A stretch of DNA of 34,561 nt from an uncultured Pseudomonadota bacterium (GTDB lineage: Bacteria > UBA10199 > JACPAL01 > GCA-016699445), in assembly GCA_964637745.1 (NCBI GenBank), contig CAZWYB010000002.1, positions 1-34,561 of the forward strand, given 5' to 3'. A program made the position numbers and the translations under genes. Below are positions 7,015-30,817 of the stretch, piece after piece. The notes under the pieces are model-generated. The model was given only the letters and a program-made list of their open reading frames with translations, was not told the DNA's origin and did no database searches. How positions within the stretch are numbered: position 1 is the first letter of the stretch; each line of letters begins with the position of its first letter.

Positions 7015-7120
7015 GAGTCCCCCTTGTGTCGGGAGACTTAAATAGCAAGTACCATGCCATGACTCACAAAAAACATACATTTATAAGTATTTAATTTTAT
7101 TAACTATTTTATATGTAAGC

Positions 7121-7177: not shown

Positions 7178-8506
7178 TTACATGGGGCATTTGGGAGAAC
7201 CCGCCGGGGCCCAGGCATTGATACCGTTGGTCAGAGCTTGCGCCCCCGTCAGATCGACGTTCATCCAATAGAGCTGGCCCTTGGGGGCTGGGTTCTGCAC
7301 CATCGGGTTTCCCGTGGGAACGATGTAGAAAATCTTACGGCCGTCGCAGGACCACGATGGAGAAACGGCATCCGACTGGGTTTCCTGACAATTCTGGAGC
7401 TTGGCGGTCGTCAGGTCCGAAGGACTCGGGACGGAAAGGTCGCAGACATCGATGCGATAGATCGTGTTGTTCACATTGTTGGGATCCTTCTTGGAAACGG
7501 AATAAGCCACTTTCCCACCATAGGGTGAGAAGGACGGTTCGGTATGCGTAATGAGGTCATTGGGACCGGGATTGGATATTGGATTTGGCGTGAGGTTGAA
7601 AGCATCATCTAAGGTGCCGTCGATCTTATTGATCCAAACATCGATTTCCGAGTTCGCGCTCTGACTGTGCCCCATGGAAAAAAGGATCAAGTTATACAAA
7701 GGATCCGCAGGATTCGTCACGGGAGACGCGGCCACGCCGAAATAATATTCGTTCGGCGTATTGTTCGTCTTTCCCGCGTCCCGCACGACCGTCGACGCAT
7801 TCCCATCGATCGTAAATTTTCTTAAAGTGCAACCGCCGGTGCTGTCATCGGCACTGGCGAGCACGTGGGCGTTATCCGCAAGAGGGACCGCAAAAAATGT
7901 GATCAAAGAATTTTGGACGGATCCCCACGCCGTCGGTTTCCCGATCGGAGCGGTCAAAGAGTTTTTAATATCCAACGAGGCCACGCTAAATCCGTTTTGT
8001 CCGTTGATCTGAACCGAGGCCGAATAAAAGAGTTTCGACGCGTCTGGTGTCATGGCGAGAGTATTCCAGAACGGAAGAGCCATACCGCCGTTTGCGATAA
8101 AGTTTGACAACGGCTTCGGTGCGGATCCTTTCGTATCGCCCCAAAAAAGATTGGCGATCGTCGTGTTGTTGTTCGCGGGATCGACCTTCACGAAGGCGTA
8201 TTCATAATACGAAGGAGCGGGGGGCTGCGTGGTTCCCGATGCTCCGGTGCTACCCGTGTCGCCCGTCGTGCCTGTATCTCCTGAGCCGCCGGTGCCGGTG
8301 GGAACGATTGCCGTCCCCCCTGAGCCTCCCGTCGCTCCCGTCGTCCCTTTCGCACCCGATGCGCCGCTCTTGTTCCCTCCGGCCGTGATGGTATTGCCGG
8401 CGTTCTTGGAACCGCCGCAACCGGAGACGGAGATCATCAGCCCTTGAAAGCCCAGGGCGATTGCAAGCAACAAGACCACGGAGGTTTTCGTTCGATTTGT
8501 TTTCAT
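7178..8506 (-). CDS. TolB/PD40-like beta-propeller lipoprotein
   Basis: ATG 8506 has AAGGAG upstream. A signal peptide ends in the lipobox VSGC. It is followed by a Gly/Thr-rich linker and then PD40-like blades (PSFSPYGGKVAYSV, SPSWSCDGRKIFYIV). Confidence 0.8.
   Translation of the reverse strand: MKTNRTKTSVVLLLAIALGFQGLMISVSGCGGSKNAGNTITAGGNKSGASGAKGTTGATGGSGGTAIVPTGTGGSGDTGTTGDTGSTGASGTTQPPAPSYYEYAFVKVDPANNNTTIANLFWGDTKGSAPKPLSNFIANGGMALPFWNTLAMTPDASKLFYSASVQINGQNGFSVASLDIKNSLTAPIGKPTAWGSVQNSLITFFAVPLADNAHVLASADDSTGGCTLRKFTIDGNASTVVRDAGKTNNTPNEYYFGVAASPVTNPADPLYNLILFSMGHSQSANSEIDVWINKIDGTLDDAFNLTPNPISNPGPNDLITHTEPSFSPYGGKVAYSVSKKDPNNVNNTIYRIDVCDLSVPSPSDLTTAKLQNCQETQSDAVSPSWSCDGRKIFYIVPTGNPMVQNPAPKGQLYWMNVDLTGAQALTNGINAWAPAGSPKCPM
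8228..8368 (-). repeat. Gly/Thr-rich low-complexity linker with Gly-X-Thr triplets (GDTGTTGDTGSTGASGTT)
   Basis: Read from the translation of the TolB-like ORF. Its composition resembles the linker of paralog F. Confidence 0.6.
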
Positions 8507-8530: not shown

Positions 8531-10948
8531 TTATGGGGCTTGCCAATTGCTGGATGCCGCCTGGTGACAGAATCCAGGCCATGCGTTTCTCCCCTCGCAA
8601 GGCGTGCAATTCCAAGGGATCGTTTGGTCCTTGGACTTTCCATCAAAAAATGTGGCTGTAATCGTGCAAGATCCCGTGTGCTCTCCGGCCGATTCACCTT
8701 TCAGAAGATAAGCCGTCTTTTCGAACATGTCCGCCTTATTGGTCAAATCGCAAGTGGACGCTCCTCCCTTATAGGTGGAGCAAATCTCGGTCTTACCATC
8801 CACCGAATTGAGGGACAGGAAAGCACCATTTTGCTTCCCGCAATCGATCGTCAATCCCGTCACGCCCTTCAAGTTCACCGCATAACTGAAGTCGACATAT
8901 TTATGATGATAGACAGGCAGGTCGTCACAGCTCCCAAAGGTGCTCTCCATGAATTTATCGCATGGGTCGTCAGCGTAGGCATCCCCATAGCACTGATTGT
9001 TTGCCCCCACCTTCGCCGTGGAATCCAGTTCGAAGGCCTCGGCCTTGGACGGATCCGGCGTCCAATCCCACGTCTTCACCCAATCGGGGTCGGTGACATC
9101 GTAAACGGACATCTGTTCCGTCTTGCGGAGGCCGAAGATAAAATGCATGCAGTTCGGCTGCAGAAAAAGCTTCGTGCGGTATTTGGCGAACCCCTGAGTC
9201 TGATCGACGACCCATCCGTCGGCGGAAGGATTTTTAATGAATTCGCTTTCGCTGGCTTCCTTGTAGGAACTGCAGGAGTAGTCCTGCTTGCCGCCGGGCC
9301 CTCCGTTATTGAAATCGAACCAGGCGTCGACCCACGGCACGTGATCCGTACTTCCGAACTGCGACCATTGATTGGTCTGGGGATCCTGCTTCCAGAGACT
9401 GACGTCGCGGGTCACGGACCCCGTCATGTCGACAAGCCCGCCGTCGCCGCAATGTTGATCTGCGTTCTGACACACCTGGGTATAGGTGACATGGCCTTGA
9501 CCATCAACACTCGCCTTATAGGTCCCGCCGGGAATCAAAGTCGCGATCGCTTTGGTCAAAGAGACCTTGAGGGAGGCTTTGGCGTCTTCTTTCGAGGTAA
9601 AACCGGGACACGTCACCGTATAGACCTGGTCCGATTTCTCGAGCGGCGCCGAGAAGGAGCACTCCACATCGTAGGCCGTGTTGCCGCCGGTGGGAAAAGG
9701 CGTCAGCTTGCAGAACTGCCCCTTGTCACCCTCCACGGTCGCCGGCTTTGACTGAGCGGCGCAGGCAAAATGGATGAAGACCGACTGCTTGTAGGGATGA
9801 GGCGACTTGGAAAGCTCGATCGTCGGGTCCGTCGCAAATTTTGTCGCCTTGATCTCCACGTCTTGGGTCTTCACCGTCCAGTTTTGGTCGCCCTTCGCCC
9901 GGTAGGCGATCGTGTACATCGCCTTGTTTTGGGCGTTCAAGGCCTTCGGATCGATCTTCGTGTAAAAGAAATCGGCGGGCTTGTTCAAACCCTGCTGCTG
10001 GTCGACCACATCCACGCGGCACAGGGGCACGGGAGGATTGTTGGGTATTTGGGAGCAGGCCGAGCCGTCCTTGCACTCCATCCCGTTGGCGTAGATCCCC
10101 CACTGGCTCCAAGACGGCATGTTGGGCGTGATGACAGTCTTGCCGTCCTGCGTGACCGCCATGCTGAGACAATTCTGATATTGCTTGTTCGGATCGGGCA
10201 CGGAGACGAACGGCCCATAAACATAGGCCTTGAAGACCGCTCCCTGGCACGACCATTTCATCTGCACGACGCCGTCGCTGTTGGACACCACGTTGGTCCC
10301 GCTGACGTCGCACGTCGGAGGTCCCGCGGGCTGCGGCGGCTGGGGCGGCGTGACGCACGTCCCGCCCTGACAGGTCTGTCCGGCCGCGCAATCGGAGTCC
10401 TGTGTGCATTGAGGCGGAGGATTGTTTTGCGCGAGGCATTGTCCGTTGACGCATGTCTTTCCCGAGGCGCAGTTCGAATTGTCCACGCACTCGGGCGTCG
10501 GCTGGGGATTCGGAGTCGGCGGCGGCGTCCCTCCCCCAGCCCCCGTTCCTCCGGAGGATCCCGTCACGGGGTCCAAATGGAATTTGCAAAGATTTTTCTG
10601 ATTTCGGGTGCCGGCTCCACAGGTGACGATATAATCGCCCGCCGGCATGCCCGGAACCGTCGGACTGACGACCCCCCCTTGGGCATCGCCGCATTGGAAG
10701 GCGTAACTGTCGTTGGCACCTTGAGCCGGATGAAAAAAGCCGGTGCAGTCTTGATCGCAGGCGCCGATTTGAACCTGGATCACCCCGCCACGGGCCACGG
10801 GGCCGGTCGCATAACAATCGGACAAACCGCTCAGATCTTTGGACGCCGCTCCGCCTTGCGAGTTCGCCCCTGGCTTACTCGCACATCCCCCCAAACACCC
10901 CAAAGACACGAACAGACAGAGAACGGCCGCAATAACATTGCGCGTCAT
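8531..10948 (-). CDS. Cysteine-rich lipoprotein, paralog E (function unknown)
   Basis: ATG 10948 has GGGGGGAG upstream. The lipobox is LGGC. The N-terminal domain (ASKDLSGLSDC...CKFHLDPV) is about half identical to that of 11075-13210. It has two CxxDxxCxxGxxCxxGxC modules (10352-10492) and the C-terminal motif CTITATFFDGKSKDQTIPWNC. Confidence 0.85.
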   Translation of the reverse strand: MTRNVIAAVLCLFVSLGCLGGCASKPGANSQGGAASKDLSGLSDCYATGPVARGGVIQVQIGACDQDCTGFFHPAQGANDSYAFQCGDAQGGVVSPTVPGMPAGDYIVTCGAGTRNQKNLCKFHLDPVTGSSGGTGAGGGTPPPTPNPQPTPECVDNSNCASGKTCVNGQCLAQNNPPPQCTQDSDCAAGQTCQGGTCVTPPQPPQPAGPPTCDVSGTNVVSNSDGVVQMKWSCQGAVFKAYVYGPFVSVPDPNKQYQNCLSMAVTQDGKTVITPNMPSWSQWGIYANGMECKDGSACSQIPNNPPVPLCRVDVVDQQQGLNKPADFFYTKIDPKALNAQNKAMYTIAYRAKGDQNWTVKTQDVEIKATKFATDPTIELSKSPHPYKQSVFIHFACAAQSKPATVEGDKGQFCKLTPFPTGGNTAYDVECSFSAPLEKSDQVYTVTCPGFTSKEDAKASLKVSLTKAIATLIPGGTYKASVDGQGHVTYTQVCQNADQHCGDGGLVDMTGSVTRDVSLWKQDPQTNQWSQFGSTDHVPWVDAWFDFNNGGPGGKQDYSCSSYKEASESEFIKNPSADGWVVDQTQGFAKYRTKLFLQPNCMHFIFGLRKTEQMSVYDVTDPDWVKTWDWTPDPSKAEAFELDSTAKVGANNQCYGDAYADDPCDKFMESTFGSCDDLPVYHHKYVDFSYAVNLKGVTGLTIDCGKQNGAFLSLNSVDGKTEICSTYKGGASTCDLTNKADMFEKTAYLLKGESAGEHTGSCTITATFFDGKSKDQTIPWNCTPCEGRNAWPGFCHQAASSNWQAP

Positions 10949-11074
10949 GAGAAACTCCCCCCGGCTTGTGTTGAATAGGAATTATCGGCGAACTCACCGA
11001 CACCGGTTTCGTTTCTAATGGACATTTAAACAAATCTTATCATGAAAATGAGGACTTGCGGGTCTTTATTCCGT

Positions 11075-13210
11075 TCAGCAGCCATGCGGGCTTTCGCTTG
11101 CCCCACAGGTCCACGAAGGGTTCAAGGTGCCGGCTTCTTTTCCGTCATAACCGATGGCGGTAAACGTGCATTCGATATCCGTATTCGATTGATGCCCCTT
11201 CAGCTCAAAATATTGCCAATCATAGGAACGCGGATCATTGGCGTCGAAGAAGACATCGTGATCCAGGCCGTCGGGACAATTCACCCGAATGTCTTTAACG
11301 TGCCTCGCCTGGAACCGGATCCCATAATCGGTGCTGCCGTATTCATACCAACACTCATTGTCCCAGGTAATGTCGCTGTTGCATCCGCTGAAGCCGACAT
11401 ACTTGCAGCTGTGGTGATTGGTCCCGCTGCAACTCCCCCACCAGGTGCCGTCGATCACGTCGAAGCGCACGTTGAAGGGTTTGTCGATCTTTTGGGGAGC
11501 CGTCACGTGGGAGCCGTCGTAGTCGTCAATGATCAGGATCCATTGCGTGGAGTAGTAGTTTCTAGTCATCAGGACGGAGCCGGAGATGGCCTCGCCCGCC
11601 TTCACGTCCACCTTCGGATCGGTCAGATCAAACGACACCGTTCCCCAAAATCCGAAAGGGTTTGAGGACGGATAAAACGTCATCTTCTTGGCCCCCGGAA
11701 TCGTCACATCCGATCCGCTCACCTTATGGAAGACGCTTCCCGCCTTCTCCTCCACCCAACAAGACCGCGAGAACCTTCCCACCATGGAGATATAGCCGGA
11801 CAGATCCAGGTCTTGAGGCGTCGTTCCTCTTTCCGTGGTGTAGTAACCGCCCTCCTGGAGCTTAGCCTGGATGCCTCCGCAAACGAGCTTATAAGTCTTC
11901 GTGTCGCTGCCTCCGGCGCCCGTGGCCGCGATCGTGAACTGGGGCGGAGAGGACGGCGTGAACGCGCAGGCGTTACGCAGATAGCTTCCTTGGCCGTCCA
12001 ACGGTAGCGGGGGGGCGGGCGGCTCGGCGGTCGTACAACCGGTCACCGCGATCGCCGATGCATTCAAGTAATCAAAACTGAGCGTCGCCTTTGGCTCCCG
12101 TTCGCTCGTCAGCCCTACCTTGATGTTTGAAACGGACGGGGCCGGGATATCGAAGTCCTTCTCATCGAACGTCCACACCCCGTCCTTGCCGTGGGCCGCG
12201 AGGATGAATTTGCCCTGGGGAACCAACAAGTCCGTGTAGAAAACGCCCGCGAGCCCGGCCGCTGTGAGATCGATCTTGCAGATCCGGCCTTCGCCCGCGG
12301 TCGGCGCGTAATTTTTACAATTGTCGGTCGAGGTATCGCACTTCTCGCCTTCGGCGAATTTTTTATATTCCGTAGCCCAATTTGGCATCACGGTGGTGAC
12401 GTCGTTGCCGACGTCGGTCGTCACGAGGTAGCGCGTGCCCGTCAGGACGCAGTCCGAATCGGCGACCGTGCGGTTGAAAGGCCCGTAAATATAGGCTTGG
12501 TCGGCATTCTCGATCTTGTAGTTCAGACGGATGGCGTTGAAACGCGCGGTCGGAGAGACGACCTTGCCCGTCGCATCGGGGCCCGTAACGACGAATTTCG
12601 CCGTCGCCGGAAGAGGCGGAGGCGGAACGGCGCAACTGCCGTCCGGTTTGCAAACCTGACCCGAGGGGCAATCGCCGTCGGCATGGCAGACGAAGGGCGG
12701 CGGCGAAGGAGGCGCCACGACCTCCACGCAAGAACCGCCCTGGCATTTCTTGCCCGCGATGCAATCCGAGTCTGCCGCGCATTCGGGGGTCGGAGGAGAC
12801 GGCGGACCGGCCGGGCCCGTATTTCCCGTCGCTCCTTGAGAGGCCGTCACCGGACTCAGATGAATTTTACAGAGAGAGATTGTCGCACCGTCTTTGGCGC
12901 CGCATGTCACCGCGTAATCCCCGGACGGCAGATTGGGGACCGTCACTCCCCCCTGAACGCTGTCGCACAAAAACGCAAAGGAGTCCGGTGCCGATCCGCT
13001 CAAGGGATGAAAAAAACCCGTACAATCCTTCTCGCACTGATCGACGGAGATCGGGACCGATCCTCCGCGAACGACCTCCGCTCCGGAGGCACAATCCGGA
13101 GCGGCGTTTAAATCTTTTGAAGCCGAACCCGTACCGGAACTCCCGTTGGAAGAGCCGCAACCGGCGGACAACAATAGAAAAAAAACGGCGATAATGACGT
13201 TCCGCATCAT
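11075..13210 (-). CDS. Cysteine-rich lipoprotein, paralog D (function unknown)
   Basis: ATG 13210 starts the ORF and the lipobox is LSAGC. It has the N-terminal domain ASKDLNAAPDC...CKIHLSPV, two 4-Cys modules (12632-12784) and the C-terminal motif CTFTAIGYDGKEAGTLNPSWTC. Confidence 0.85.
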   Translation of the reverse strand: MMRNVIIAVFFLLLSAGCGSSNGSSGTGSASKDLNAAPDCASGAEVVRGGSVPISVDQCEKDCTGFFHPLSGSAPDSFAFLCDSVQGGVTVPNLPSGDYAVTCGAKDGATISLCKIHLSPVTASQGATGNTGPAGPPSPPTPECAADSDCIAGKKCQGGSCVEVVAPPSPPPFVCHADGDCPSGQVCKPDGSCAVPPPPLPATAKFVVTGPDATGKVVSPTARFNAIRLNYKIENADQAYIYGPFNRTVADSDCVLTGTRYLVTTDVGNDVTTVMPNWATEYKKFAEGEKCDTSTDNCKNYAPTAGEGRICKIDLTAAGLAGVFYTDLLVPQGKFILAAHGKDGVWTFDEKDFDIPAPSVSNIKVGLTSEREPKATLSFDYLNASAIAVTGCTTAEPPAPPLPLDGQGSYLRNACAFTPSSPPQFTIAATGAGGSDTKTYKLVCGGIQAKLQEGGYYTTERGTTPQDLDLSGYISMVGRFSRSCWVEEKAGSVFHKVSGSDVTIPGAKKMTFYPSSNPFGFWGTVSFDLTDPKVDVKAGEAISGSVLMTRNYYSTQWILIIDDYDGSHVTAPQKIDKPFNVRFDVIDGTWWGSCSGTNHHSCKYVGFSGCNSDITWDNECWYEYGSTDYGIRFQARHVKDIRVNCPDGLDHDVFFDANDPRSYDWQYFELKGHQSNTDIECTFTAIGYDGKEAGTLNPSWTCGASESPHGC

Positions 13211-13285
13211 GATGATTTCACCCTTTATCGTTGTATTTCAACTTATCGGCCGATCGGGGCACCCAAGTTGCCCCGCCTGCCACCC

Positions 13286-14662
13286 TTAAGGGGATGCGTG
13301 AGGGGCGGGCAGGATCCAGTCCGCATGCCCGAACCAGGGATAATCGACCTCGGCGAGATTGATATTGGGGTCGATAAGGGCCTTGGGGAGGCCGAAGTTC
13401 AAGGTGACGGAAGTCTCCGCCTTGATGATGGGGCGCTCCATCCCTTCCGACTGCAGCTTTCTTTTCAAAAATTGAGCGTATTGCCAGATCAGATCCGGTT
13501 TGACGGCCATTTCGTCGATCTGAGAGGGGATCAGGTCCTCGCTCAGATCAATGTCTTTCGTTTCATTTGTCTTAGGGTCGGTCAAAGTCAGACGGATCAG
13601 ACCTTGTTTATGGCGCAGTTTCATCCGCCACGAAAAATAATGCCCCTCTTCCGTCCAGGCGACATCGCCCGCAAAGAGCCAATGCCGTAAAGGGATCAGG
13701 ATCTGCAGCAGGAGATACAGTGAAATCAGGCAGACGGCCAAACTTCCGCCTACCCTTCCCTCCGGCGATCGTTCCCTCGGAATAAACGGAGCGGACGAGC
13801 CGAAAGCTGACCGCAGGCGACCGAAGAAGCGGCGCGGCGTGTCGGGTTCAAGAAAGACGACCGTCGCGGCGATCATCAAGTAAGGAAAGACGCCGATGTG
13901 AAAGAGCCAATTATTCGTCACGTTGAAAAACAGGACGCCGCAAACGGCGAAGGGCCGGGTCTTCTTCCAGCAGAGAAGAAATCCGATCGTCAGATCGAAG
14001 AGGAGCCCTCCGTAACAAAAGAACCAGACGCCCTTCTCCACCCCCAGGAAACTGGCCAGGGTTGAGGTCTCTTGAAGCTGTTGGAGCCAATGCCGGATCG
14101 GCTCCCCATGCAGCCAATCGCGGTTCAGCTTCGCTACGCCGCCGAAGAAATAGACGAGAAAAAATTGGGCGCGAAGGAGAAAGACGTTCCAGAACGGGAC
14201 CCGCCCCGTCGCGACTTGGGGACGACGCCATCCGTCGAGGGAGGCCCATCTCTGGGCGCCCATCGGAATCAACAAGAGAGCGATCAGCGCGGTCAGATAA
14301 TAATGGTTGTTGTAAAGGGTCTTATCGAGAAGAAAAAAGTACAGATAGGAAATAAAAAAAACGACGCCGGCGACCCGATAAAAAAGTCCAAGACAGAGGC
14401 AAAGCGCGGCCAGGGCGATGACCGCTAGATGCCAGTAGATGGCGTTTCCCGGCAAAGGACGCACAAAGGGAAGAAAGGGAAAATGAAAAAAGGGATGGGA
14501 AAAGTACGGCGCCTCATGGATCCAGAATCGGAAGACCTGGTCCACCATGATCGCGCCAAAGAGGATGCGGAAGACGGCCAACGAAGAGGCGTCGACGGGG
14601 CGGTTTAAGAGGCCATTCCATTTCTTAAGGCGTGTGGCCGTCGTTGTGGAAGCCGTCGTCAT
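13286..14662 (-). CDS. Vitamin-K-dependent gamma-carboxylase-like polytopic membrane protein (HTTM/VKGC family)
   Basis: It aligns along its whole length with human GGCX as I remember that sequence: LNRPVDASSLAVFRILFG, FLLDKTLYNNHYYL, VPFWNVFLLRAQFFLVYFFGGVAKLNRDW, WTEEGHYFSWRM, PDLIWQYAQFL and VTLNFG..ALIDPNINL. The track ORF starts at 14728. I chose ATG 14662 because it cuts the overlap with the upstream gene from 104 nt to 38 nt. Confidence 0.85.
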   Translation of the reverse strand: MTTASTTTATRLKKWNGLLNRPVDASSLAVFRILFGAIMVDQVFRFWIHEAPYFSHPFFHFPFLPFVRPLPGNAIYWHLAVIALAALCLCLGLFYRVAGVVFFISYLYFFLLDKTLYNNHYYLTALIALLLIPMGAQRWASLDGWRRPQVATGRVPFWNVFLLRAQFFLVYFFGGVAKLNRDWLHGEPIRHWLQQLQETSTLASFLGVEKGVWFFCYGGLLFDLTIGFLLCWKKTRPFAVCGVLFFNVTNNWLFHIGVFPYLMIAATVVFLEPDTPRRFFGRLRSAFGSSAPFIPRERSPEGRVGGSLAVCLISLYLLLQILIPLRHWLFAGDVAWTEEGHYFSWRMKLRHKQGLIRLTLTDPKTNETKDIDLSEDLIPSQIDEMAVKPDLIWQYAQFLKRKLQSEGMERPIIKAETSVTLNFGLPKALIDPNINLAEVDYPWFGHADWILPAPHASP

Positions 14663-17171
14663 CGCAGTGGAATTTGAATGTATAATTGGTGGTCGGCGGC
14701 GTGCGGTCCTCCATGGCGCACCAGCCATTCACGCAGGTTTGCCCGGCTCCGCAACCCGAATCGCAGGTGGAATTCGTCGATCGCCAATAATGCCCGATGA
14801 GGGTGCACGAAAACTGATCGCCCCAGTCGTCGTCCTGCCCCCCTCTATGGAAGTCAGCAGCCATCGTGCCGTCGAGAGAAGGTTCGAGGTTCGGCTGCTG
14901 GCTGACTGTCGGAGAGCCCTTGTCGCAGGCGGGTTCGATGTGGGTCAGGTTCGTCGCATGCCAATGGAGGGTGGCGGTGACGTGAACGTCCGAATCGTCA
15001 TTGCAATCGCCACCGTCGCCGTTGACCGTATAAAAACCCGGCCCTTCGACATACTCAACCGTAAGCGTCCCCGGCTGGGGCGGCGGGGTCGGAAAGGGAG
15101 CGTAGATGTCGTTCGCAGCCGGAAGAATGGAGCCATCGAGATCCTTCACGACGAACTTATAGCCCGTGCAGGGACTGTTGTTCCTGGGGAGCTTGACGTT
15201 TTCAAGCTTCAGGGTCGAACCGAAGACGCTGACGTCTCCGTTGTTCCCCGTGGGCAAAGCGCCTTTCCAAGGGAAAATGTTGAACACCCCCGAGGTACCG
15301 CAAACGTTGAACTTGTTTCTGTCGAAGGCCTGGATCTCGAGAGACCCAACCCAAGGAACGTCTTTTTGCGCGACCTGATCGTAGTTTCCGGAATTATCGT
15401 CCCTCTTCTTGCTGATCGTGGCCTTGCGCAGGACGCCTCCCGAAAAGGAAAGTTTGCCTTGCTTGCTGCACTGATTCCAATTCCCGCAGGCGTTCGCCGC
15501 CCCGTTCGAGCAATCACAATGCCCCTCATTCCCGTCGAGAGCTCCGTTCTGGAATTGAGGGTATCCGGAACTGGGAGGATCCAACTCCACTTTGTAAGTT
15601 GCATCCTTGGAATCAGCGATACCTAATCCCGTCGCCCAGAATTCGATAACCTGGCTTTTGCTGTTCAAAGGACAATTCATCGTAAAAGACGCCAGATTTC
15701 CAAGCTTATCCGGAGTGTTTCCCGTCGGTGGCTCGCAACCCATGGGGGGCATGATCGGCACCGAAATGTTTTTCCCCGTGGCTGTCACTCGGATCTTCGG
15801 CGCATCGGTCTGTACATCGACGTTTGCGGTGAACGTCACGGGATCCACATCCACGGGATCCGAGTCCACCGCCTTCTCCAAGGTTCCGGCCTTCACATAG
15901 AGATGAAACTTCAATTTGTCCGCCAAAACCCGCGTATAGACAAACCCGCTCTTGACGAAGTGACCGGCCGCGTCCTTGGTCGTCATCACGCAAGCAGGAG
16001 GTTGATCACAAAGAAAGCAGGGCGTCGGCGGCGTGTAGCCGTGGCAATTTGAGCCGTCGTCTTTGCACTTCACCGCCGAATCCATATAAGTCTTCACCGC
16101 ATCATACGGGGCCGTTCCGGAAGTCATATCGCCCCCCAAGTTGGCCGCATTGGACTCGTTGCCGTTCACCAAAAGATACCGCGTATGCCCCAGCCCCCCT
16201 GCGAACATATCGTCGGGCTTGCCCTTGCATTCATCGCCCGGCGTGCCGCCGTCTATCGTAATCCGATAGAAACCGTCCGACCAGATCTGCAGATCGGTAA
16301 TGTCCTTGGCGTTGACCCCCGTCACGTTCCAGCTCACCTTGACCAAGCCCAGCCGCGTGTCGAATTTCTTATCGACGGTGAGGGTCGCATCAAAGGTCCC
16401 CAAAGGCTCGCAGGTCCCGGCGGTACAAGTCGTTTTTGACGAACAATCCGCATCGCTGGTACAGGACTGGGCCACGCAATGTCCTGTCGGAGAGCAGGTC
16501 GTCTTATCCCCCGTCGTACAATCCGCGTCCGTCACGCACTCCAAATCCACGCAGCTTCCCGCCTTGCATTTCTTTCCCGTAATGCAATCCGCGTTCGTCG
16601 TGCACGCCACGGGGCCGGCCGGCGCTGGCGTGCAGGTCCCGGACATGCATTTGTCGCCTGTAGGACAATCGGTATCGCTGGAACAGGTCGCCGTAGAACC
16701 CGTGCCGCCCGTTCCTCCCGCGGCGATCACGCACGAGCCACCCTGAAGGACTTCTCCGGGCGGGCAAGACGTCGTTTGCTGCGTCGGGGGCTTGATCGTG
16801 AATTGATCCGCAAGGATGGTCCTATGGCTGTCGTCGCAATTACCGCCTCCGCAGCAAAAAAGAGTCCCCGTCCCCTGGATCGACGAGGGCATCTGGATAT
16901 CGACGGGCGTATCTTTTGAGTTTGAGGAATCGGGACATTGATCCAAGTAAAATTGCTGTTTGTTCTTTTCGAAAAAGACCGTGCAATTATCGGGGCAGTC
17001 CTTGAGGTTGCATTTGACGGTCGTTCCGACGGCGGCCTGATTGGCATCGCAGGTCGTCAGCGCGCCGAGGTTTTTTGTACCCTTCCCTCCACCACCGCCA
17101 CCTCCCCCACCACCGCAGGAGCTAAGGAGCAAGAGACCGACGAAGAGAGGAAGGATGGCTGGACGGCCCAT
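14625..17171 (-). CDS. Cysteine-rich lipoprotein, paralog C (function unknown)
   Basis: ATG 17171 has AGGAGG 7 nt upstream (the track ORF starts at 17192). The lipobox LSSC is followed by a 10-residue poly-Gly run. About six 4-Cys modules lie at 16410-16766. The family C-terminal motif is present but interrupted by one extra Cys module. Confidence 0.85.
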   Translation of the reverse strand: MGRPAILPLFVGLLLLSSCGGGGGGGGGGKGTKNLGALTTCDANQAAVGTTVKCNLKDCPDNCTVFFEKNKQQFYLDQCPDSSNSKDTPVDIQMPSSIQGTGTLFCCGGGNCDDSHRTILADQFTIKPPTQQTTSCPPGEVLQGGSCVIAAGGTGGTGSTATCSSDTDCPTGDKCMSGTCTPAPAGPVACTTNADCITGKKCKAGSCVDLECVTDADCTTGDKTTCSPTGHCVAQSCTSDADCSSKTTCTAGTCEPLGTFDATLTVDKKFDTRLGLVKVSWNVTGVNAKDITDLQIWSDGFYRITIDGGTPGDECKGKPDDMFAGGLGHTRYLLVNGNESNAANLGGDMTSGTAPYDAVKTYMDSAVKCKDDGSNCHGYTPPTPCFLCDQPPACVMTTKDAAGHFVKSGFVYTRVLADKLKFHLYVKAGTLEKAVDSDPVDVDPVTFTANVDVQTDAPKIRVTATGKNISVPIMPPMGCEPPTGNTPDKLGNLASFTMNCPLNSKSQVIEFWATGLGIADSKDATYKVELDPPSSGYPQFQNGALDGNEGHCDCSNGAANACGNWNQCSKQGKLSFSGGVLRKATISKKRDDNSGNYDQVAQKDVPWVGSLEIQAFDRNKFNVCGTSGVFNIFPWKGALPTGNNGDVSVFGSTLKLENVKLPRNNSPCTGYKFVVKDLDGSILPAANDIYAPFPTPPPQPGTLTVEYVEGPGFYTVNGDGGDCNDDSDVHVTATLHWHATNLTHIEPACDKGSPTVSQQPNLEPSLDGTMAADFHRGGQDDDWGDQFSCTLIGHYWRSTNSTCDSGCGAGQTCVNGWCAMEDRTPPTTNYTFKFHCDDDGFHNDGHTP

Positions 17172-17297
17172 ATCAAGACCTCCTGAAATCAACCCCGGGT
17201 AGTTGTTTTCGGCATGTTACTGGCATGCAGTTTCGTCATCGGTAATTTAAGATGTCATCTTACCAGAACCGAAGGTGGATGAGTGATATTTTTTCAC

Positions 17298-19703
17298 TTA
17301 ATGCCTCGGATGGACTGCGCAGTTGTCATCGTTACCAGGGCATTCTTCCGAGCGCGTTCCAAGGCCGAGGCGTCCATGTCGGAATGTCGGCTCATGATCC
17401 CAACAACTGAACCAAAAACAGCTATGGGACATGACGCAAATTCTTGCGTCACAGTCGGAATATCCATAGGGAAGGGATACGTCGGGATACGAGACAGGAT
17501 CCCACGATTCGCAAACGAGTTGGCAATTCCTTCCCTCGGCTATCTGCCGGTCATCGATGGCGCCCGACCTCGTTTGATAGGTGGCGACGCCGTCGGTTTC
17601 GGAGGGATAGGAAATCGTGTGCCCGCAGGTGGAATACAGCCGTTTGCAATTCTGCGCGTTCGACCAATTCCAATGGTAACGCCTGGCATAAAGCGTGCCC
17701 CAGTTGTCCGTGTTGTCGCATTGATTGCCGCCGGGCCAACCGCCCCCGGCTCCGCCGTTATGGTCGGGGGTATATTGGCAGGCGGCGTTTTGCCACTCGG
17801 AGTTGTAATGCGAGACGGCCGCTGTCCATCCCCGATCCATCGGGTCGGCGCCTCCCTCCAACGACAAATGCGGAGGGAAAGGAAAACTTTTCAGCGACGG
17901 ATCCGACTGAAACAGACTTCCATCCGTATCATGTCCAACTATGGCATATTGCGTGCAATGGTGGGTCCTTCCAAGCCGGACCGGGCCGATCGGAGTGGTC
18001 GTGATCGAGGTCACCACATCACCGGCTCCACACTCCTCGGGAGGCCCATACCCTCCCCTCGTTCCAACCGGAGCAAAGGCCTTCACCTGAAGATCGCGGA
18101 CCCATGGGACAGTCACCGAGCTCTCATCGTGCCAGGATCCGTCATCCATGAGCTTGGAGACCGTACACGCGCGAGTGACGGAGGCATAGAAAGTGAGATC
18201 GACGGGCGTGTTGCAACTTTCCCACCAGTGATCCAAGGATGTCCCGGAGCACGACAACACGCCTCCCGGATCTCGCGCGCCGGGCGCGTAAATTTCGCCG
18301 CCGAGTCTTAAATTCGGTTGAGGGGCCTCGCAGTGGATACGGTATTGTTGCAACACGTTATCGGCGGTGTCCCCCATGGCCATAGCAACGATACTGACCG
18401 TCGCATCCTTTTGAAACGGACAACTTCCCGTGATGCTCGCCCGTCCGTCACTGGAGACGTCGTTCACCATGGTCGTCACGAGGCATCCCATGACCGCCAG
18501 GCGTTGAACAGTATGGGTCGCGTTCGCCTGCAACTCGATCTTGGGCTCGCGATCGCTCACCGTAACGCTAACGCCCGAGAACGACGGACGCTCCAGCGTG
18601 AATTCATGCGTCGTCGACCGCCATGTACCGTCCTCTCCTTGCGCCACCAGGGTATATTTCCCAGGCCACGCCAACTTGACGTAGAACGTCCCGCTCGCGG
18701 CCGACAGCTCCACGCGGCAGAAGGTGGCCGATCGATGCGCGTCGGGATGCCAATCGCGGCAGTTGCCGTCGGCTTCCACGCAGGCAGTCCCCGAATTATA
18801 AGGATGGTACGTGGCATAGACGGGCGCCCCTTCGACCAACGCATGCCCGTTCGGATCGGTCACGAGGCCTTCGTGCGTCGTACCGGTCACGGTCTCGCTG
18901 CAATCCGCCCTCGATGTGGGGAAATAGACGTATTTGGCCCGGAGGGTTCCTCCGCCTTGAATCTGGTAATTGACGTGTGCGAACCCGTAAAGATCGCGAA
19001 TGGCGTCGCTGCCGTCCAAAGAAACGCCGAAGGTCGTCGGCGTCGAAGACGCCTCGCGCACCCCGCAGGTGTGATCGGAGCGGCACACGTTGCCGCCCGT
19101 ACATTCGCTGTCGGCGTGGCAAGAGGTCGGCGTGGGTGTCGGCGTCGTCCCCGCCACACAGCTTCCACTGTGACAGACACGGCCGGACGCGCAATCGGCG
19201 TCGTCCACGCAGGTCGGCGTCGTCGCGCCGGGCGTGCTGTCCGAGGGGCGGATCTCCCCTCCTCCGCCTGCGGAGCACGTCCCCGCGCTGCAGGTCTGGC
19301 CGGCTCCGCAGTCGGTATCGGAGGAACAGGTTGAAGCCGCCCCGGGAACAATCTGGAAATTACGAGCGATCACAAAGGGCCCTTCCGTTCCGCGTCTCCA
19401 AATGAGATCGCCGGTGCCCGTCTGGGCGGGAAGCGTCAACGAAAGGCCGCGGTCGTTTTGATTGCAGTCGACAAAAAATTCCATCCGGCCTCGATCCAAA
19501 AAACAGCGGGAATCGGCGTCGAAATTGTCTTGAGGGCCGCATTGAATCGTCTGACCGGGTGTTCCCGTCGGAGGACACGAAGTCGCCGTTCCTTGAGGGG
19601 ATGTCGACGCCCCGCCGCTTTTTTTGGACGACGCGCAGGCGGCAAGACTGACGATGAATAAAAGAGCCAAAACGGCCCGGAATCTCGCAAGGTGGCACGC
19701 CAT
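17298..19703 (-). CDS. Cysteine-rich lipoprotein, paralog B (function unknown)
   Basis: ATG 19703 starts the ORF and the lipobox is LAAC. The N-terminal domain (CPPTGTPGQTIQC...FFVDC...GDLIWRRG..GPFVI) is clearly similar to that of 19824-22139. Three 4-Cys modules lie at 19065-19328. Confidence 0.85.
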   Translation of the reverse strand: MACHLARFRAVLALLFIVSLAACASSKKSGGASTSPQGTATSCPPTGTPGQTIQCGPQDNFDADSRCFLDRGRMEFFVDCNQNDRGLSLTLPAQTGTGDLIWRRGTEGPFVIARNFQIVPGAASTCSSDTDCGAGQTCSAGTCSAGGGGEIRPSDSTPGATTPTCVDDADCASGRVCHSGSCVAGTTPTPTPTSCHADSECTGGNVCRSDHTCGVREASSTPTTFGVSLDGSDAIRDLYGFAHVNYQIQGGGTLRAKYVYFPTSRADCSETVTGTTHEGLVTDPNGHALVEGAPVYATYHPYNSGTACVEADGNCRDWHPDAHRSATFCRVELSAASGTFYVKLAWPGKYTLVAQGEDGTWRSTTHEFTLERPSFSGVSVTVSDREPKIELQANATHTVQRLAVMGCLVTTMVNDVSSDGRASITGSCPFQKDATVSIVAMAMGDTADNVLQQYRIHCEAPQPNLRLGGEIYAPGARDPGGVLSCSGTSLDHWWESCNTPVDLTFYASVTRACTVSKLMDDGSWHDESSVTVPWVRDLQVKAFAPVGTRGGYGPPEECGAGDVVTSITTTPIGPVRLGRTHHCTQYAIVGHDTDGSLFQSDPSLKSFPFPPHLSLEGGADPMDRGWTAAVSHYNSEWQNAACQYTPDHNGGAGGGWPGGNQCDNTDNWGTLYARRYHWNWSNAQNCKRLYSTCGHTISYPSETDGVATYQTRSGAIDDRQIAEGRNCQLVCESWDPVSYPDVSLPYGYSDCDARICVMSHSCFWFSCWDHEPTFRHGRLGLGTRSEECPGNDDNCAVHPRH

Positions 19704-19823: not shown

Positions 19824-22139
19824 TTATTGCCAGGCACATTGGGCGGGCGGCTCAAAGTTGGGATTCCGTTTCGTCTGTAAACCGTTACCCGATCCCGTCG
19901 CCTTGCCGTCAGGACCATCCTCGTAACAACTGCACTCCCACTGTTTATGTGGGATGGACACCTCTACCCTCGTTCCGTCGTAGTAGACGGCCCAGAACTG
20001 GCAGGAGAAATCCTGTTTCCAATCGCTCCAATATTTGTTTCGGATTCCATCGTCCGTAATATTGGCGGAAGGCACCGGGATATCGGTCGAAAGGATACCG
20101 CTCTGAGGTCCGTAATTCTTAGGGTCGGGCTTATCCCATTTCGAATAAACGATGATGTCAATGTCCGGCGTCTTTTCTCCCCCCAGGGCCAAACGATCAT
20201 AGGTCGCAATTTCACAATGGTACGCAAAATAACTGAGATGCTGTCCGCTCCAGGACCAAGCAATCGATGAGGACCCGTCGAAACAGGAATGTGTATCCTT
20301 CAGGTTGAGCGTCGGACTCAGGGGAGAGGGAGAAATGCTGAAAGAAGGATTATAAGGATGGCTCACGGGGTCGCTTTGATACGTCTTCCCGTCATAATCC
20401 TTGGCGACGGCGACCCAGCCCGTATGGCCGTAATCCCGATCCGCGACGAACTCCCCATTCCCGTTTTTCTTGGTCACTTCCTCCTTGAGGATCCAAGGAG
20501 CGGACTGCGGCTTGTAATTCGGAGTGAAGAGCGTTTTCTTGGCCATGCTCTTATTTGCGGTCGTGGTACGAACGGAAGAAGGATCCGTCGCTGCATAAAC
20601 GGATAACGAATCCACCCAGACAACTTCCTTGGAGGCAGCCGGTTTGACGGAGACGCCGTCCTTCTGAATGTCATAGGTACGGGAAACAGTCGGATGGAAA
20701 TTGATGGTTCCCGGATAATCACAATTATCCGGATCGTTCGCGGCTCCCGTCCCGGAACACGTTCCCCCTCCCTCGTTCAAGGTCACCGCCGGTTTGTGGA
20801 GGACCACCGAGAACGTATGGGACACGGCATTCTTGGGATCCAAACCGGAAGCAGCGATACCGATCGTCATGTTCGTCGAGAGCAAGCAGGTCGCAGAAAG
20901 CGTGCCGGAACCGTCTTTTGACAACGAGTTGAGCGTGTATTGAATTGAGGGGCAACCGGTCACCGCCGGAACGCTGGAGACGCCCGTATAGGTCGCCTGC
21001 AGGAGGACCTTCGGCTCGTTATAGGACAGGGAGACGGCGGCGTCGACGGTCGGGATATCCGGCGTCAACGTCAGCTCCGCGGTCTTCGTCGTTCCCGCCT
21101 CATCCGTCGCCACGATCACGAACTTTCCGTTTGCAACCAGGAGCCGCGAGGCGAAATCGCCTGCCGCCAGGGGCTTCCCGTTTGCGTCGACCGGATTCAT
21201 CAGACACGTCGGCGCCGCAGGCGCACCGGCTGCCGGCGGGGAAAATCCCTGATAGCAATCATTGGCGTTGACGCACGGCTTGCCCGTGGTCAGACCTTTC
21301 GACTCGGCCTCCTGAAAATTCGTGGACGGCTGCGCCGGCGGAGTGGGAAGAGGTCCAAAATCCCCTCCTCCGGATTTCGCCGGATTGACCGTGAGCCATG
21401 ACGCCGTTTTATCGTCGCCGCAGTTGGTATCCTTATCGCTCCGGTTCCAGGGGCCGACCAAGGCCACCGATTTCAAACCCTGTCCCCCTTCGACGTGAAA
21501 CGTAAAGGTGTAAAGGCCCAATCGGGTTTTGGTCTCTTCTTGGGCCTCGAGAGTCACTTTGAGTTCTTGAGGGGTTCCCGTCGTCGGCGAAGTCGTCCCG
21601 GTCGAACCGGACCCGGATGGAGAAGGCGTCCCGGAAGCCACACACGTTCCGGAGGTCTTGTCGCAAATCCTGCCGCTGGCGCAGTCGGAATCGCTCAAAC
21701 AATTCACCGTGCTCTCCGTGGGAGTCACGGGTTGTCCTCCGGAAGCGGCGGGAGCCGAAGCCGAAGCGGAGGCCGGAGCGATCGTGATCCCCTTTTGAAT
21801 GACGAAGGGCCCCGCCGACCCTTGGCGGAAGATCAAGTCCCCCTTGCCCGCCAGGGCCGGAAGCGTCACTTGAAGACCTTTATCGGTTTCCTGGCAATCG
21901 ACGAACAGCTCTCTCTGCCCCTGATCCAAGAAACACTGGCTGTCGCTCGTGAAGTTGTCGGGTTTCGCGCAGAGGATCTGTTCGCCCGGCGTCGCCGTCG
22001 TGGGACAGGCCGAGAGCGATGCCGTGCCGCCACCGACGGGCGAAGGCCCCTTGTTGGCGGAACCGCCGCCGCAGGAGGCGGCAAACACCAGCACACACGT
22101 CAGGACCAAGACTTTTTGAAACGGGCTATAAAATCTCAT
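19824..22139 (-). CDS. Cysteine-rich lipoprotein, paralog A (function unknown)
   Basis: ATG 22139 starts the ORF and the lipobox is AASC. The N-terminal domain is homologous to paralog B. One 4-Cys module lies at 21642-21701. The C-terminal motif is FSCQFWAVYYDGTRVEVSIPHKQWEC. Confidence 0.85.
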   Translation of the reverse strand: MRFYSPFQKVLVLTCVLVFAASCGGGSANKGPSPVGGGTASLSACPTTATPGEQILCAKPDNFTSDSQCFLDQGQRELFVDCQETDKGLQVTLPALAGKGDLIFRQGSAGPFVIQKGITIAPASASASAPAASGGQPVTPTESTVNCLSDSDCASGRICDKTSGTCVASGTPSPSGSGSTGTTSPTTGTPQELKVTLEAQEETKTRLGLYTFTFHVEGGQGLKSVALVGPWNRSDKDTNCGDDKTASWLTVNPAKSGGGDFGPLPTPPAQPSTNFQEAESKGLTTGKPCVNANDCYQGFSPPAAGAPAAPTCLMNPVDANGKPLAAGDFASRLLVANGKFVIVATDEAGTTKTAELTLTPDIPTVDAAVSLSYNEPKVLLQATYTGVSSVPAVTGCPSIQYTLNSLSKDGSGTLSATCLLSTNMTIGIAASGLDPKNAVSHTFSVVLHKPAVTLNEGGGTCSGTGAANDPDNCDYPGTINFHPTVSRTYDIQKDGVSVKPAASKEVVWVDSLSVYAATDPSSVRTTTANKSMAKKTLFTPNYKPQSAPWILKEEVTKKNGNGEFVADRDYGHTGWVAVAKDYDGKTYQSDPVSHPYNPSFSISPSPLSPTLNLKDTHSCFDGSSSIAWSWSGQHLSYFAYHCEIATYDRLALGGEKTPDIDIIVYSKWDKPDPKNYGPQSGILSTDIPVPSANITDDGIRNKYWSDWKQDFSCQFWAVYYDGTRVEVSIPHKQWECSCYEDGPDGKATGSGNGLQTKRNPNFEPPAQCAWQ

Positions 22140-30765: not shown

Positions 30766-30817
30766 TGAGGCAGCAGGGCTGCCAAGGGAAGAAACGACTG
30801 ATCGTTTTCTATGGCAG

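What the first reader, a model, noticed from the sequence alone, without database searches (positions are those of the whole stretch)
13286..14662. Bacterial protein aligning across both the membrane and lumenal regions of metazoan gamma-glutamyl carboxylase, with key catalytic positions retained
Similarity goes beyond a generic HTTM domain. The protein matches human GGCX (remembered sequence) from LLNRPTDPASLAVFRFLFG through FLLDKTSWNNHSYL (here FLLDKTLYNNHYYL, keeping the His equivalent to H160). It continues through FIAGVKKLDADW (here FGGVAKLNRDW, keeping the Lys equivalent to the proposed catalytic base K218) and into the lumenal part (WTNGLYGYSWDMM vs WTEEGHYFSWRM; ADMLKQYATCL vs PDLIWQYAQFL; VSINDRFQQRIFDPRVDI vs VTLNFGLPKALIDPNINL). 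Bacterial orthologs are known (for example Leptospira), but their substrates are not. Here the gene is embedded among secreted Cys-rich proteins, and that offers candidate substrates. None of the neighbours has an obvious Gla-type Glu-rich domain or propeptide, so a different chemistry is possible, such as quinone epoxidation coupled to another oxidation.
Basis: partly seen in the sequence, partly recalled or inferred. Interest (0 to 1): 0.8.

Follow-up and report, generated by a model that had tools for sequence, protein, structure and literature searches.

The report
Bacterial vitamin K carboxylase homolog
This gene encodes a bacterial relative of the human blood-clotting enzyme gamma-glutamyl carboxylase that keeps the quinone chemistry site but lacks the part that grips clotting-factor-type substrates; thousands of bacteria carry such genes, so it is a typical member of a known but functionally unsolved family.

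Summary
The ORF at 13286-14662(-) (458 aa, or 480 aa from 14728) matches Pfam HTTM (3e-80) and VKGC_lumenal_dom (1e-43). It aligns with human GGCX residues 50-504 (7e-59). Its AlphaFold model matches only GGCX structures (TM 0.84). Human N159, H160, K218, D222, W223, D263, N290, F299 and M401 are all retained.

It is not an unusual bacterial protein. More than 2,200 database proteins and at least 577 species genomes carry the same two-domain architecture. The protein ends at about human residue 510, so it lacks clamp B and the C-terminal domain, which form half of the propeptide cleft. The Glu-anchoring Tyr395 is His, and the propeptide-contact residues are not conserved.

The idea that the flanking lipoproteins are substrates has little support. 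The lipoprotein/VKGC pairing recurs only in one syntenic relative. It is absent from 160 other VKGC loci and from four other lipoprotein loci.

Best reading: an inner-membrane enzyme with a periplasm-facing active site that uses menaquinol and O2 to generate a strong base, possibly for carboxylation, acting on an unknown substrate that is not of the Gla type.

Verdict: a new member of a known kind, of modest interest.

The parts
13286..14662 (-). VKGC-like (HTTM + clamp A) inner-membrane protein. It is 458 aa from the ATG at 14662. An alternative upstream ATG at 14728 gives 480 aa.
   Evidence: ORF list; P0001 is a 100% match; Pfam; PDB phmmer; AF2 model and Foldseek.
13841..14605 (-). HTTM transmembrane domain (residues 42-296 in 480-aa numbering). 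It contains N141/H142 (human N159/H160; H142 codon 14303-14305), K200 (human K218; codon 14129-14131), D204/W205 (D222/W223), D245 (D263), N272 (N290) and F281 (F299).
   Evidence: Pfam PF05090, E 3e-80. Residue map read from the HMMER alignment. Conservation in 120 homologs for all of these except N272, which is invariant (as N250) in the 29-sequence alignment.
13301..13741 (-). Last TM helix plus the periplasmic 'lumenal' domain, equivalent to human LL9 loop and clamp A (residues 330-476). The protein stops at about human residue 510, so clamp B and the C-terminal domain are absent.
   Evidence: Pfam PF22777, E 1.2e-43. Alignment ends at human 504. R513 lies in clamp B according to PMC12647623.
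14625..17192 (-). Cys-rich lipoprotein paralog C (848-855 aa), directly upstream. Its last 38 nt overlap the VKGC start at 14662. It is the positional ortholog of the single lipoprotein upstream of VKGC in L001.
   Evidence: best reciprocal match to L001 7854-9992; 5-nt gap in L001.
11075..13210 (-). Cys-rich lipoprotein paralog D (711 aa), 75 nt downstream of VKGC.
   Evidence: The AF2 model is all-beta but of low confidence (pLDDT 61.7).
8531..10948 (-). Cys-rich lipoprotein paralog E (805 aa).
17298..19703 (-). Cys-rich lipoprotein paralog B (801 aa).
19824..22139 (-). Cys-rich lipoprotein paralog A (771 aa).
4888..7080 (-). Lipoprotein paralog F (708-730 aa). It has fewer Cys residues and no Cys-rich repeats.
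7178..8506 (-). A 442-aa lipoprotein with weak TolB/PD40 beta-propeller similarity, sitting inside the lipoprotein array. It is unrelated to the paralog family.
   Evidence: No homolog in any other locus held.

Best explanation
[quoted passage not shown] It is a polytopic inner-membrane enzyme. Its N-terminus is cytoplasmic, it has nine TM helices like GGCX, and its active site lies at the periplasmic face of the membrane.

Shown: the fold, the domain architecture, and full retention of two residue sets. The first set is what human GGCX uses to bind and deprotonate vitamin K hydroquinone (K218, D263, W223, N290). The second set forms the CO2/acid-substrate pocket (N159, H160, F299, M401, and the W390/W399 of loop LL9).

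Inferred: the enzyme binds menaquinol, the bacterial vitamin K2 hydroquinone. It reacts it with O2 to give the epoxide and a transient strong base. It uses that base to remove a proton from a carbon acid held at the periplasmic interface, probably followed by CO2 addition.

It is not a propeptide-directed Gla-forming carboxylase. Clamp B and the C-terminal domain are missing, Tyr395 is His, and the propeptide contacts are not conserved. The substrate pocket carries bacteria-specific residues that are nearly invariant across phyla. The substrate is therefore more likely a common molecule or motif than the lineage-specific lipoproteins that flank the gene here. Those lipoproteins are co-transcribed neighbours of unproven relevance.
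For: Pfam HTTM at 3e-80 and VKGC_lumenal_dom at 1e-43.

Human GGCX is the only PDB hit: 7e-59 by sequence, and TMq 0.84 at E 1e-25 by structure.

Counts among 120 homologs: N159 120/120, H160 119, K218 120, D222 120, W223 118, D263 120, F299 119, H381 120, W390 120, W399 120, M401 118. N290 corresponds to N272, which is invariant in the 29-sequence alignment.

The roles of these residues in GGCX are taken from PMC12647623 and PMC13486548.

The N-terminal 43 residues hold 8 K/R and no D/E, which fits the positive-inside rule.

The model shows nine long helices followed by a beta-rich C-terminal domain.

The window protein keeps the region aligned to human ~374-418, which the truncated giant-virus 'epoxidase-only' homologs lack. 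This is compatible with a coupled substrate reaction.

Bacteria-specific pocket residues: E at the N392 position 117/120, H at Y395 110/120, K at M402 113/120, K at R406 116/120.

Outside one clade, no conserved protein neighbour was found among 160 loci.
Against: No activity was measured. Everything beyond family membership is inferred by homology.

The Leptospira ortholog was reported to epoxidise vitamin K without carboxylating Glu peptides (Rishavy et al. 2005, cited from memory, not checked here). Carboxylation may therefore not occur.

The quinone type and oxygen lifestyle of this organism are unknown, because only a 34.5-kb contig is available.

No VKOR or DsbB gene lies in the window to recycle an epoxide.

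The overlapping, conserved lipoprotein-VKGC gene pair leaves a functional link open.
Confidence: 0.7

Rival explanations
1. One reading: the enzyme post-translationally modifies the flanking Cys-rich, Asp-rich surface lipoproteins, for example by carboxylating Asp/Glu or by another base-driven reaction. In particular it would act on the paralog encoded directly upstream, while that protein is still tethered to the inner membrane by its N-terminal lipid and Gly/Ser linker.
For: The VKGC gene sits inside a co-directional array of six paralogs. The upstream paralog overlaps the VKGC start by 38 nt. In the syntenic relative L001, a single family member ends 5 nt before the VKGC start, and it is the best match of that same upstream paralog. 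The lipoproteins are exported, carry lipoboxes with flexible linkers, and are Asp-rich (49-77 Asp against 18-29 Glu). MloH gives a precedent for Asp carboxylation by a bacterial VKGC homolog.
Against: The only recurrence is in one related lineage in which the whole region is collinear, with housekeeping proteins 73-84% identical. It is therefore not independent evidence. No family member lies within 10 kb of VKGC homologs in 80 species genomes or 80 metagenome loci. Four other contexts of the lipoprotein family lack any HTTM gene within the flank held, which is at most 10 kb a side and less where the contig ends. There is no invariant Asp or Glu and no propeptide-like motif in the family alignments; the invariant residues are mostly Cys (with a few Gly/Pro/Leu/Arg). 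The enzyme's pocket residues are conserved across phyla that lack these lipoproteins.
Confidence: 0.12
2. Epoxidase only. The protein oxidises menaquinol to the epoxide, or otherwise consumes O2 and quinol, without modifying any second substrate. It would serve quinone-pool, redox or oxygen management, as proposed for the Leptospira ortholog and the truncated giant-virus 'VKE' proteins.
For: The quinol-deprotonation residues are fully conserved. Most genomes show no conserved partner or substrate gene. The Glu-anchoring Tyr395 and the propeptide exosite are lost. There is a viral precedent and a Leptospira precedent (cited from memory).
Against: Unlike the viral proteins, this family keeps loop LL9 and clamp A. 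The CO2/acid pocket residues N159, H160 and F299, and four bacteria-specific pocket residues, are nearly invariant. That is hard to explain if nothing binds there.
Confidence: 0.15
3. A generic DoxX/SURF4-like membrane protein, or an inactive relic with no quinone chemistry. This is the JGI-style annotation given to some homologs.
For: Some homologs carry the automatic name 'uncharacterized membrane protein YphA (DoxX/SURF4 family)'. There is no NCBIfam hit.
Against: The full-length match is to GGCX only, by both sequence and structure. All catalytic positions are retained. Strong purifying conservation is seen across phyla.
Confidence: 0.03

Closest known systems
Human/metazoan gamma-glutamyl carboxylase (GGCX/VKGC; PDB 9BVK, 9L21, 9WF3 and others)
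   Same: The nine-helix HTTM membrane domain, loop LL9 and clamp A. About 30% identity over human residues 50-504. N159, H160, K218, D222, W223, D263, N290, F299, H381, W390, W399 and M401 are identical.
   Different: There is no counterpart of human residues ~505-758 (clamp B jelly-roll and C-terminal domain). Y395 is His, M402 is Lys and R406 is Lys. The propeptide contacts Y415, Y425, F431 and R436 are not conserved, and C450 is Phe. No Gla-domain substrate is encoded nearby.
Widespread bacterial HTTM + VKGC_lumenal_dom proteins (annotated 'HTTM domain-containing protein' or 'vitamin K-dependent gamma-carboxylase')
   Same: Same architecture, length (about 420-510 aa) and invariant residues, at 40-53% identity. 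The family is found in Chloroflexota, Nitrospinota, Myxococcota, Acidobacteriota, Verrucomicrobiota, Bacteroidota, Planctomycetota and others. The window protein is a plain member.
   Different: Only the gene neighbourhood differs. Here it is a lineage-specific lipoprotein array. Bacteroidota have an imelysin-VKGC-TonB receptor triad, and most other lineages have no conserved neighbour.
Leptospira VKGC ortholog (Rishavy et al. 2005; cited from memory; its existence is noted in PMC4555120)
   Same: A bacterial VKGC homolog with no known Gla substrates.
   Different: It was reported as epoxidase-active and carboxylase-inactive, and thought to have been acquired by horizontal transfer. The present family is broadly bacterial.
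MloH of Streptomyces (malonomycin biosynthesis; Law et al. 2018, as cited)
   Same: A bacterial VKGC-related enzyme that shows this chemistry can carboxylate a non-Glu carbon acid (the Asp alpha-carbon).
   Different: MloH sits in a PKS/NRPS cluster and has an HTTM region fused to a DUF5819-like region. The window has no biosynthetic cluster and a clamp A domain instead.
HTTM-DCC1 proteins with a DUF5819 partner (bioRxiv 10.64898/2026.08.19.745780), and giant-virus VKE/VKED epoxidase-desaturases next to VKOR (PMC13486548)
   Same: An HTTM core with the K218 equivalent. They are proposed to have non-Gla functions.
   Different: Those proteins lack the VKGC lumenal domain (the viral ones lack human residues 374-418) or replace it with DCC1/DUF5819. 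The window protein keeps LL9 and clamp A, and has no DCC1, desaturase or VKOR neighbour.

Membership tests
VKGC/HTTM family (Pfam PF05090 + PF22777) | HTTM domain above the Pfam gathering score | tested here: met
   270 bits against a cut-off of 27.7, E 3e-80, profile positions 1-258 of 259.
VKGC/HTTM family (Pfam PF05090 + PF22777) | VKGC lumenal domain (loop LL9 and clamp A) above the gathering score | tested here: met
   149 bits against a cut-off of 27.7, E 1.2e-43, profile positions 4-150 of 152.
VKGC/HTTM family (Pfam PF05090 + PF22777) | Three-dimensional fold of GGCX | tested here: met
   AF2 model with pLDDT 89.4. Foldseek against the PDB finds only GGCX entries significant: TMq 0.70-0.84, E 6e-15 to 8e-26.
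VKGC/HTTM family (Pfam PF05090 + PF22777) | Quinol-deprotonation site: K218, D263, W223, N290 | tested here: met
   K200, D245, W205 and N272 in the window protein. Counts among 120 homologs are 120, 120 and 118 for the first three. N272 is invariant in the 29-sequence alignment.
VKGC/HTTM family (Pfam PF05090 + PF22777) | CO2/acid pocket: N159, H160, F299, M401 | tested here: met
   N141, H142, F281 and M369 in the window protein. Counts among 120 homologs are 120, 119, 119 and 118.
Gla-forming, propeptide-directed gamma-glutamyl carboxylase (metazoan GGCX function) | Clamp B jelly-roll and C-terminal domain completing the propeptide cleft (human ~505-758) | tested here: not met
   The protein ends 6 residues after the position aligned with human 504. 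Longer homologs add TM helices, not clamp B.
Gla-forming, propeptide-directed gamma-glutamyl carboxylase (metazoan GGCX function) | Glu/dipeptide anchor Tyr395, with R436, H440 and R406 | tested here: not met
   Y395 is H363 in the window protein, and His in 110 of 120 homologs. R436 is E406, H440 is K410 and R406 is K374.
Gla-forming, propeptide-directed gamma-glutamyl carboxylase (metazoan GGCX function) | Propeptide-contact residues Y415, Y425, L426, V430, F431 | tested here: not met
   These are L382, D392, I393, I400 and P401 in the window protein, and the positions vary across the family.
Gla-forming, propeptide-directed gamma-glutamyl carboxylase (metazoan GGCX function) | Substrate proteins with a propeptide and a Gla domain | tested here: not met
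   No Gla-domain hit appears in any window protein scanned against Pfam. Only the 34.5-kb window could be searched.
Gla-forming, propeptide-directed gamma-glutamyl carboxylase (metazoan GGCX function) | Vitamin K epoxidase and carboxylase activity; a VKOR partner to recycle the epoxide | not testable with these tools
No VKOR or DsbB domain lies in the window, and the rest of the genome is not available.
MloH-type natural-product carboxylase | Location in a PKS/NRPS biosynthetic cluster | tested here: not met
   The neighbours are lipoproteins, PrfB, Lnt, YbeY, PhoH, an acyl-CoA-ligase-like AMP-binding enzyme and AsnS. There are no PKS or NRPS domains.
Imelysin-VKGC-TonB receptor triad (Bacteroidota) | An adjacent Peptidase_M75 imelysin gene and a TonB-dependent receptor gene | tested here: not met
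   The triad is present in 6-7 Bacteroidota/Rhodothermota loci and absent from the window.
HTTM-DCC1 / DUF5819 system | A C-terminal DCC1-like domain and an adjacent DUF5819 protein | tested here: not met
   There is no DCC1 (PF04134) or DUF5819 hit in the protein or its neighbours.

The most novel reading that the evidence does not exclude
In this lineage, the VKGC-like enzyme and the lipoprotein encoded directly upstream form a dedicated modification pair, and the six-paralog array is a set of further clients. The enzyme would use menaquinol and O2 to carboxylate, or otherwise base-activate, Asp or Glu residues of surface lipoproteins at the periplasmic face of the inner membrane before Lol export. 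These would be the first protein substrates known for a bacterial vitamin K-type carboxylase.
Probability: 0.1. Interest if true: 0.8.

Novelty: new member of a known kind. Interest (0 to 1): 0.3.

Why it matters
[quoted passage not shown] This makes the family one of the larger groups of enzymes with clear chemistry and no known purpose, and recent structural papers call it a possibly ancient CO2-fixing strategy. This window does not solve that question.

Three useful points came out of the analysis. First, the catalytic core is invariant across phyla. Second, loop LL9, which forms the substrate pocket, carries its own bacteria-specific invariant residues (Glu, His, Lys, Lys in place of human N392, Y395, M402, R406), while the propeptide exosite is absent. 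This argues for a shared substrate that is not of the Gla type. Third, the only robustly conserved neighbourhood is the imelysin/TonB-receptor triad of Bacteroidota, which is probably a better entry point for experiments than the lipoprotein array seen here.

Tried and rejected
1. The search for homologous proteins with lipoprotein alignments A2 and A5 returned only the first query sequence. The family size came instead from the full HMMER scan.

2. The look-up of encoding contigs found nothing on record for P0001 and P0127.

3. I tested whether genes adjacent to VKGC homologs are generally enriched for lipoproteins. The raw count was 11/55 against 32/470 (Fisher p = 0.003). However, 7 of the 11 belong to the single Bacteroidota imelysin cluster. 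Without them the rate equals background, so I rejected this as a general trend.

4. The AMP-binding gene near VKGC in L025 and L164 is only about 30% identical to the window's. This is generic family similarity, not conserved linkage.

5. The PD40/TolB-like lipoprotein at 7178-8506 has no homolog in any other locus held. That includes the PD40/Tricorn gene upstream of VKGC homolog P0007.

6. The AF2 model of lipoprotein D was of low confidence (pLDDT 61.7). Its Foldseek hits are generic Ig/FN3-like arrays with TM scores of 0.1-0.2. I used them only to say the protein is all-beta with tandem beta-sandwich domains.

7. The promoter and terminator scan was no different from shuffled sequence.

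8. The organism could not be named, because the sources give no name. Lnt and the lipoboxes indicate a bacterium that makes triacylated lipoproteins, as diderms typically do.

Full report
**1. Observation**

The window carries an ORF at 13286..14728 on the minus strand, 480 aa long. The database version, P0001, is 100% identical, comes from an NCBI contig of 34,561 bp (the whole window), and starts at the second ATG at 14662, giving 458 aa.

Pfam gives HTTM (PF05090) at E 3e-80 over residues 42-296, and VKGC_lumenal_dom (PF22777) at E 1.2e-43 over residues 330-476. phmmer against all PDB chains finds only human gamma-glutamyl carboxylase, at E 7e-59. Query residues 36-474 align with human 50-504.

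An AlphaFold2 model built on 29 homologs is confident (pLDDT 89.4, pTM 0.89). It shows nine long helices followed by a beta-containing C-terminal domain. In the PDB, Foldseek matches only GGCX entries (TMq up to 0.84, E 1e-25, 30-31% identity). The next hit has E 0.5.

**2. Residue-level check**

I took residue roles from the cryo-EM paper PMC12647623 and from PMC13486548, and read the HMMER alignment. In 480-aa numbering, the mapping is:

- N159/H160 → N141/H142
- K218 → K200
- D222/W223 → D204/W205
- D263 → D245
- N290 → N272
- F299 → F281
- H381 → H349
- W390 → W358
- W399 → W367
- M401 → M369

Among 120 bacterial homologs, every mapped position except N272 is conserved in 118-120 sequences; N272 is invariant in the 29-sequence alignment. 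The would-refute condition of misaligned K218 or H160 is therefore not met.

The residues human GGCX uses to hold its substrates are a different matter. Y395, the Glu/dipeptide anchor, is H363 here, and His in 110 of 120 homologs. M402 is K370, R406 is K374, R436 is E406 and H440 is K410. The propeptide contacts Y415, Y425, L426, V430 and F431 become L382, D392, I393, I400 and P401, and these positions vary across the family.

The protein stops 6 residues after the position aligned with human 504. R513 of the clamp B bridge helix lies beyond that point. Clamp B and the C-terminal domain are therefore absent, which removes half of the propeptide cleft plus the stabilising helices. Longer homologs of about 600-646 aa extend with hydrophobic helices, not with clamp B.

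Unlike the truncated giant-virus 'epoxidase' homologs, which lack human residues 374-418, this protein keeps loop LL9 and clamp A.

**3. How common it is**

The protein search returned 2,239 proteins at E ≤ 1e-10 among the candidates scored. All 120 listed carry both Pfam domains, at 40-53% identity. The hosts include Chloroflexota, Nitrospinota, Myxococcota (Nannocystis), Hydrogenedentota, Verrucomicrobiota, Acidobacteriota, Actinomycetota, Bacteroidota (Pontibacter, Fulvivirga), Planctomycetota and even a Nitrosotenuis archaeon.

The literature already states that GGCX-like enzymes are broadly conserved in bacteria and cites MloH as a characterised example. Similarity that goes 'beyond a generic HTTM domain' is thus the norm for a large, already recognised bacterial family.

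**4. Neighbourhood**

The gene lies in a co-directional, tightly packed run on the minus strand. The order is:

- PhoH
- 7TMR-HD
- an ETR1_N histidine kinase
- YbeY
- Lnt
- PrfB
- lipoprotein paralogs A, B and C
- VKGC
- lipoprotein paralogs D and E
- a TolB-like lipoprotein
- lipoprotein paralog F
- an AAA/DUF4143 gene

An AMP-binding enzyme (plus strand) and AsnS follow.

The six paralogs are 708-855 aa and 18-30% identical to one another. Each has a lipobox and a Gly/Ser linker. Most have Cys-rich repeats (weak TIGR04201 and DUF7107 hits), and all have a large all-beta C-terminal part. They contain 17-49 Cys residues and are richer in Asp than in Glu. Paralog C overlaps the VKGC start codon by 38 nt.

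**5. Is the lipoprotein link conserved?**

The closest relative, P0002 (53% identity, a JGI contig held as L001), shows the same backbone. Its order is PhoH, 7TMR-HD, YbeY, Lnt, PrfB, one 713-aa lipoprotein, VKGC, AMP-binding, then AsnS. The lipoprotein ends 5 nt before the VKGC start. That lipoprotein is the best match of window paralog C, which is the paralog directly upstream of VKGC.

However, the whole region is collinear, and housekeeping proteins are 73-84% identical between the two. This is one lineage, not an independent recurrence.

A profile of the lipoprotein family finds no member within 10 kb of VKGC homologs in 80 species genomes or in 80 metagenome loci.

A full HMMER scan of 1.84 billion representative proteins shows the family is tiny, with about 45-50 full-length representatives. 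The remaining hits match only the Cys repeats.

Four other genomic contexts of family members (L166, L167, L168-170, L171-172) hold no HTTM gene within the flank held for each locus, at most 10 kb a side and less where the contig ends. Several instead sit next to a large Ser/Thr-kinase/sigma-54-activator regulator.

The family alignments have no invariant Asp or Glu and no propeptide-like motif. The invariant positions are mostly Cys (with a few Gly/Pro/Leu/Arg).

From the enzyme's side, neighbours of VKGC homologs are heterogeneous. The only robust pattern is imelysin-VKGC-TonB receptor in Bacteroidota and Rhodothermota, and two loci have DCC1-like neighbours. An apparent enrichment of lipoproteins next to VKGC genes disappears once the imelysin cluster is counted once.

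**6. Mechanism**

Membership in the VKGC family is established. By homology, the enzyme should sit in the inner membrane with its N-terminus in the cytoplasm. The first 43 residues hold 8 K/R and no D/E, and the GGCX topology is known. The K200/D245/W205/N272 quinol site and the N141/H142/F281 pocket should lie at the periplasmic interface.

The likely cofactor is menaquinol. The likely chemistry is O2-dependent epoxidation, generating a strong base that deprotonates a bound carbon acid. The retained CO2 pocket makes carboxylation plausible. These steps are inferred, not shown.

The near-invariance across phyla of the bacteria-specific pocket residues (E360, H363, K370, K374), together with the lack of conserved partner genes, suggests a common substrate. 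That fits better than lineage-specific lipoproteins. The overlapping gene pair still leaves a small probability that the lipoproteins are clients in this lineage.

Two rivals remain: an epoxidase-only redox role, and, very unlikely, an inactive membrane protein.

**7. Comparison and novelty**

The protein is the same as GGCX in fold and catalytic core. It differs in lacking clamp B and the C-terminal domain, the Tyr395 anchor, and the propeptide exosite.

It is a plain member of the widespread bacterial HTTM + VKGC_lumenal family. It is not of the MloH type (no biosynthetic cluster), not of the HTTM-DCC1/DUF5819 type, and not part of the imelysin triad.

The window holds no VKOR or DsbB gene, and the rest of the genome is unavailable.

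Verdict: a new member of a known kind. The window-specific feature, the lipoprotein array, is real but lineage-specific and of unproven relevance. Interest is modest at 0.3. The most novel reading not excluded, that the lipoproteins are the first bacterial VKGC protein substrates, has a probability of about 0.1.

Noticed in passing
L056, L060, L067, L068, L072, L080 (about 8800-13800 in each), plus L069 (imelysin only): In Bacteroidota and Rhodothermota, the VKGC-like gene lies in a conserved triad: an imelysin (Peptidase_M75) lipoprotein, the VKGC-like gene, then a TonB-dependent receptor, with gaps of 2-60 nt. This is the only robustly conserved neighbourhood found for the family. It hints at a link with metal or iron uptake or with the outer membrane.
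   Followed up: partly
window 4888-7080, 8531-10948, 11075-13210, 14625-17192, 17298-19703, 19824-22139 (all minus strand): Six divergent tandem paralogs of a very small lipoprotein family, with about 45-50 full-length representatives among 1.84 billion proteins. The syntenic relative L001 has a single copy. Elsewhere, family members sit beside Ser/Thr-kinase + sigma-54-activator regulators of 1380-1430 aa (L166, L168-170).
   Followed up: partly
window 30765-33518 (+): A 917-aa protein with Dicty_CTDC repeats and disintegrin-like Cys-rich repeats (Pfam E about 1e-20 for each). It is another Cys-rich, probably secreted protein on the same contig.
   Followed up: no
window 25371-26921 (-): A histidine kinase with an ethylene-receptor-like N-terminal domain (ETR1_N, E 1.5e-40) plus PAS. 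It is inserted between YbeY and the 7TMR-HD gene, whereas in the syntenic locus L001 those two genes are adjacent.
   Followed up: no
P0007 and P0030 (L162 10001-11860): Long-form VKGC homologs of about 600-646 aa extend beyond clamp A with several extra hydrophobic helices rather than a clamp B domain. P0007 lies 26 nt downstream of a PD40/Tricorn-like protein and next to an ECF sigma factor gene.
   Followed up: partly
P0060, P0072, P0099 (one Nitrospinales contig of 204,375 bp): Three VKGC-like paralogs, 42-47% identical to the query, are encoded on a single contig. Some bacteria therefore keep several copies.
   Followed up: no
window 13286-14662, residues E360, H363, K370, K374 (480-aa numbering): Loop LL9, which forms the Glu pocket in human GGCX, carries bacteria-specific residues that are nearly invariant in 120 homologs from many phyla: E 117, H 110, K 113 and K 116. 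This suggests a shared substrate that is not of the Gla type.
   Followed up: partly
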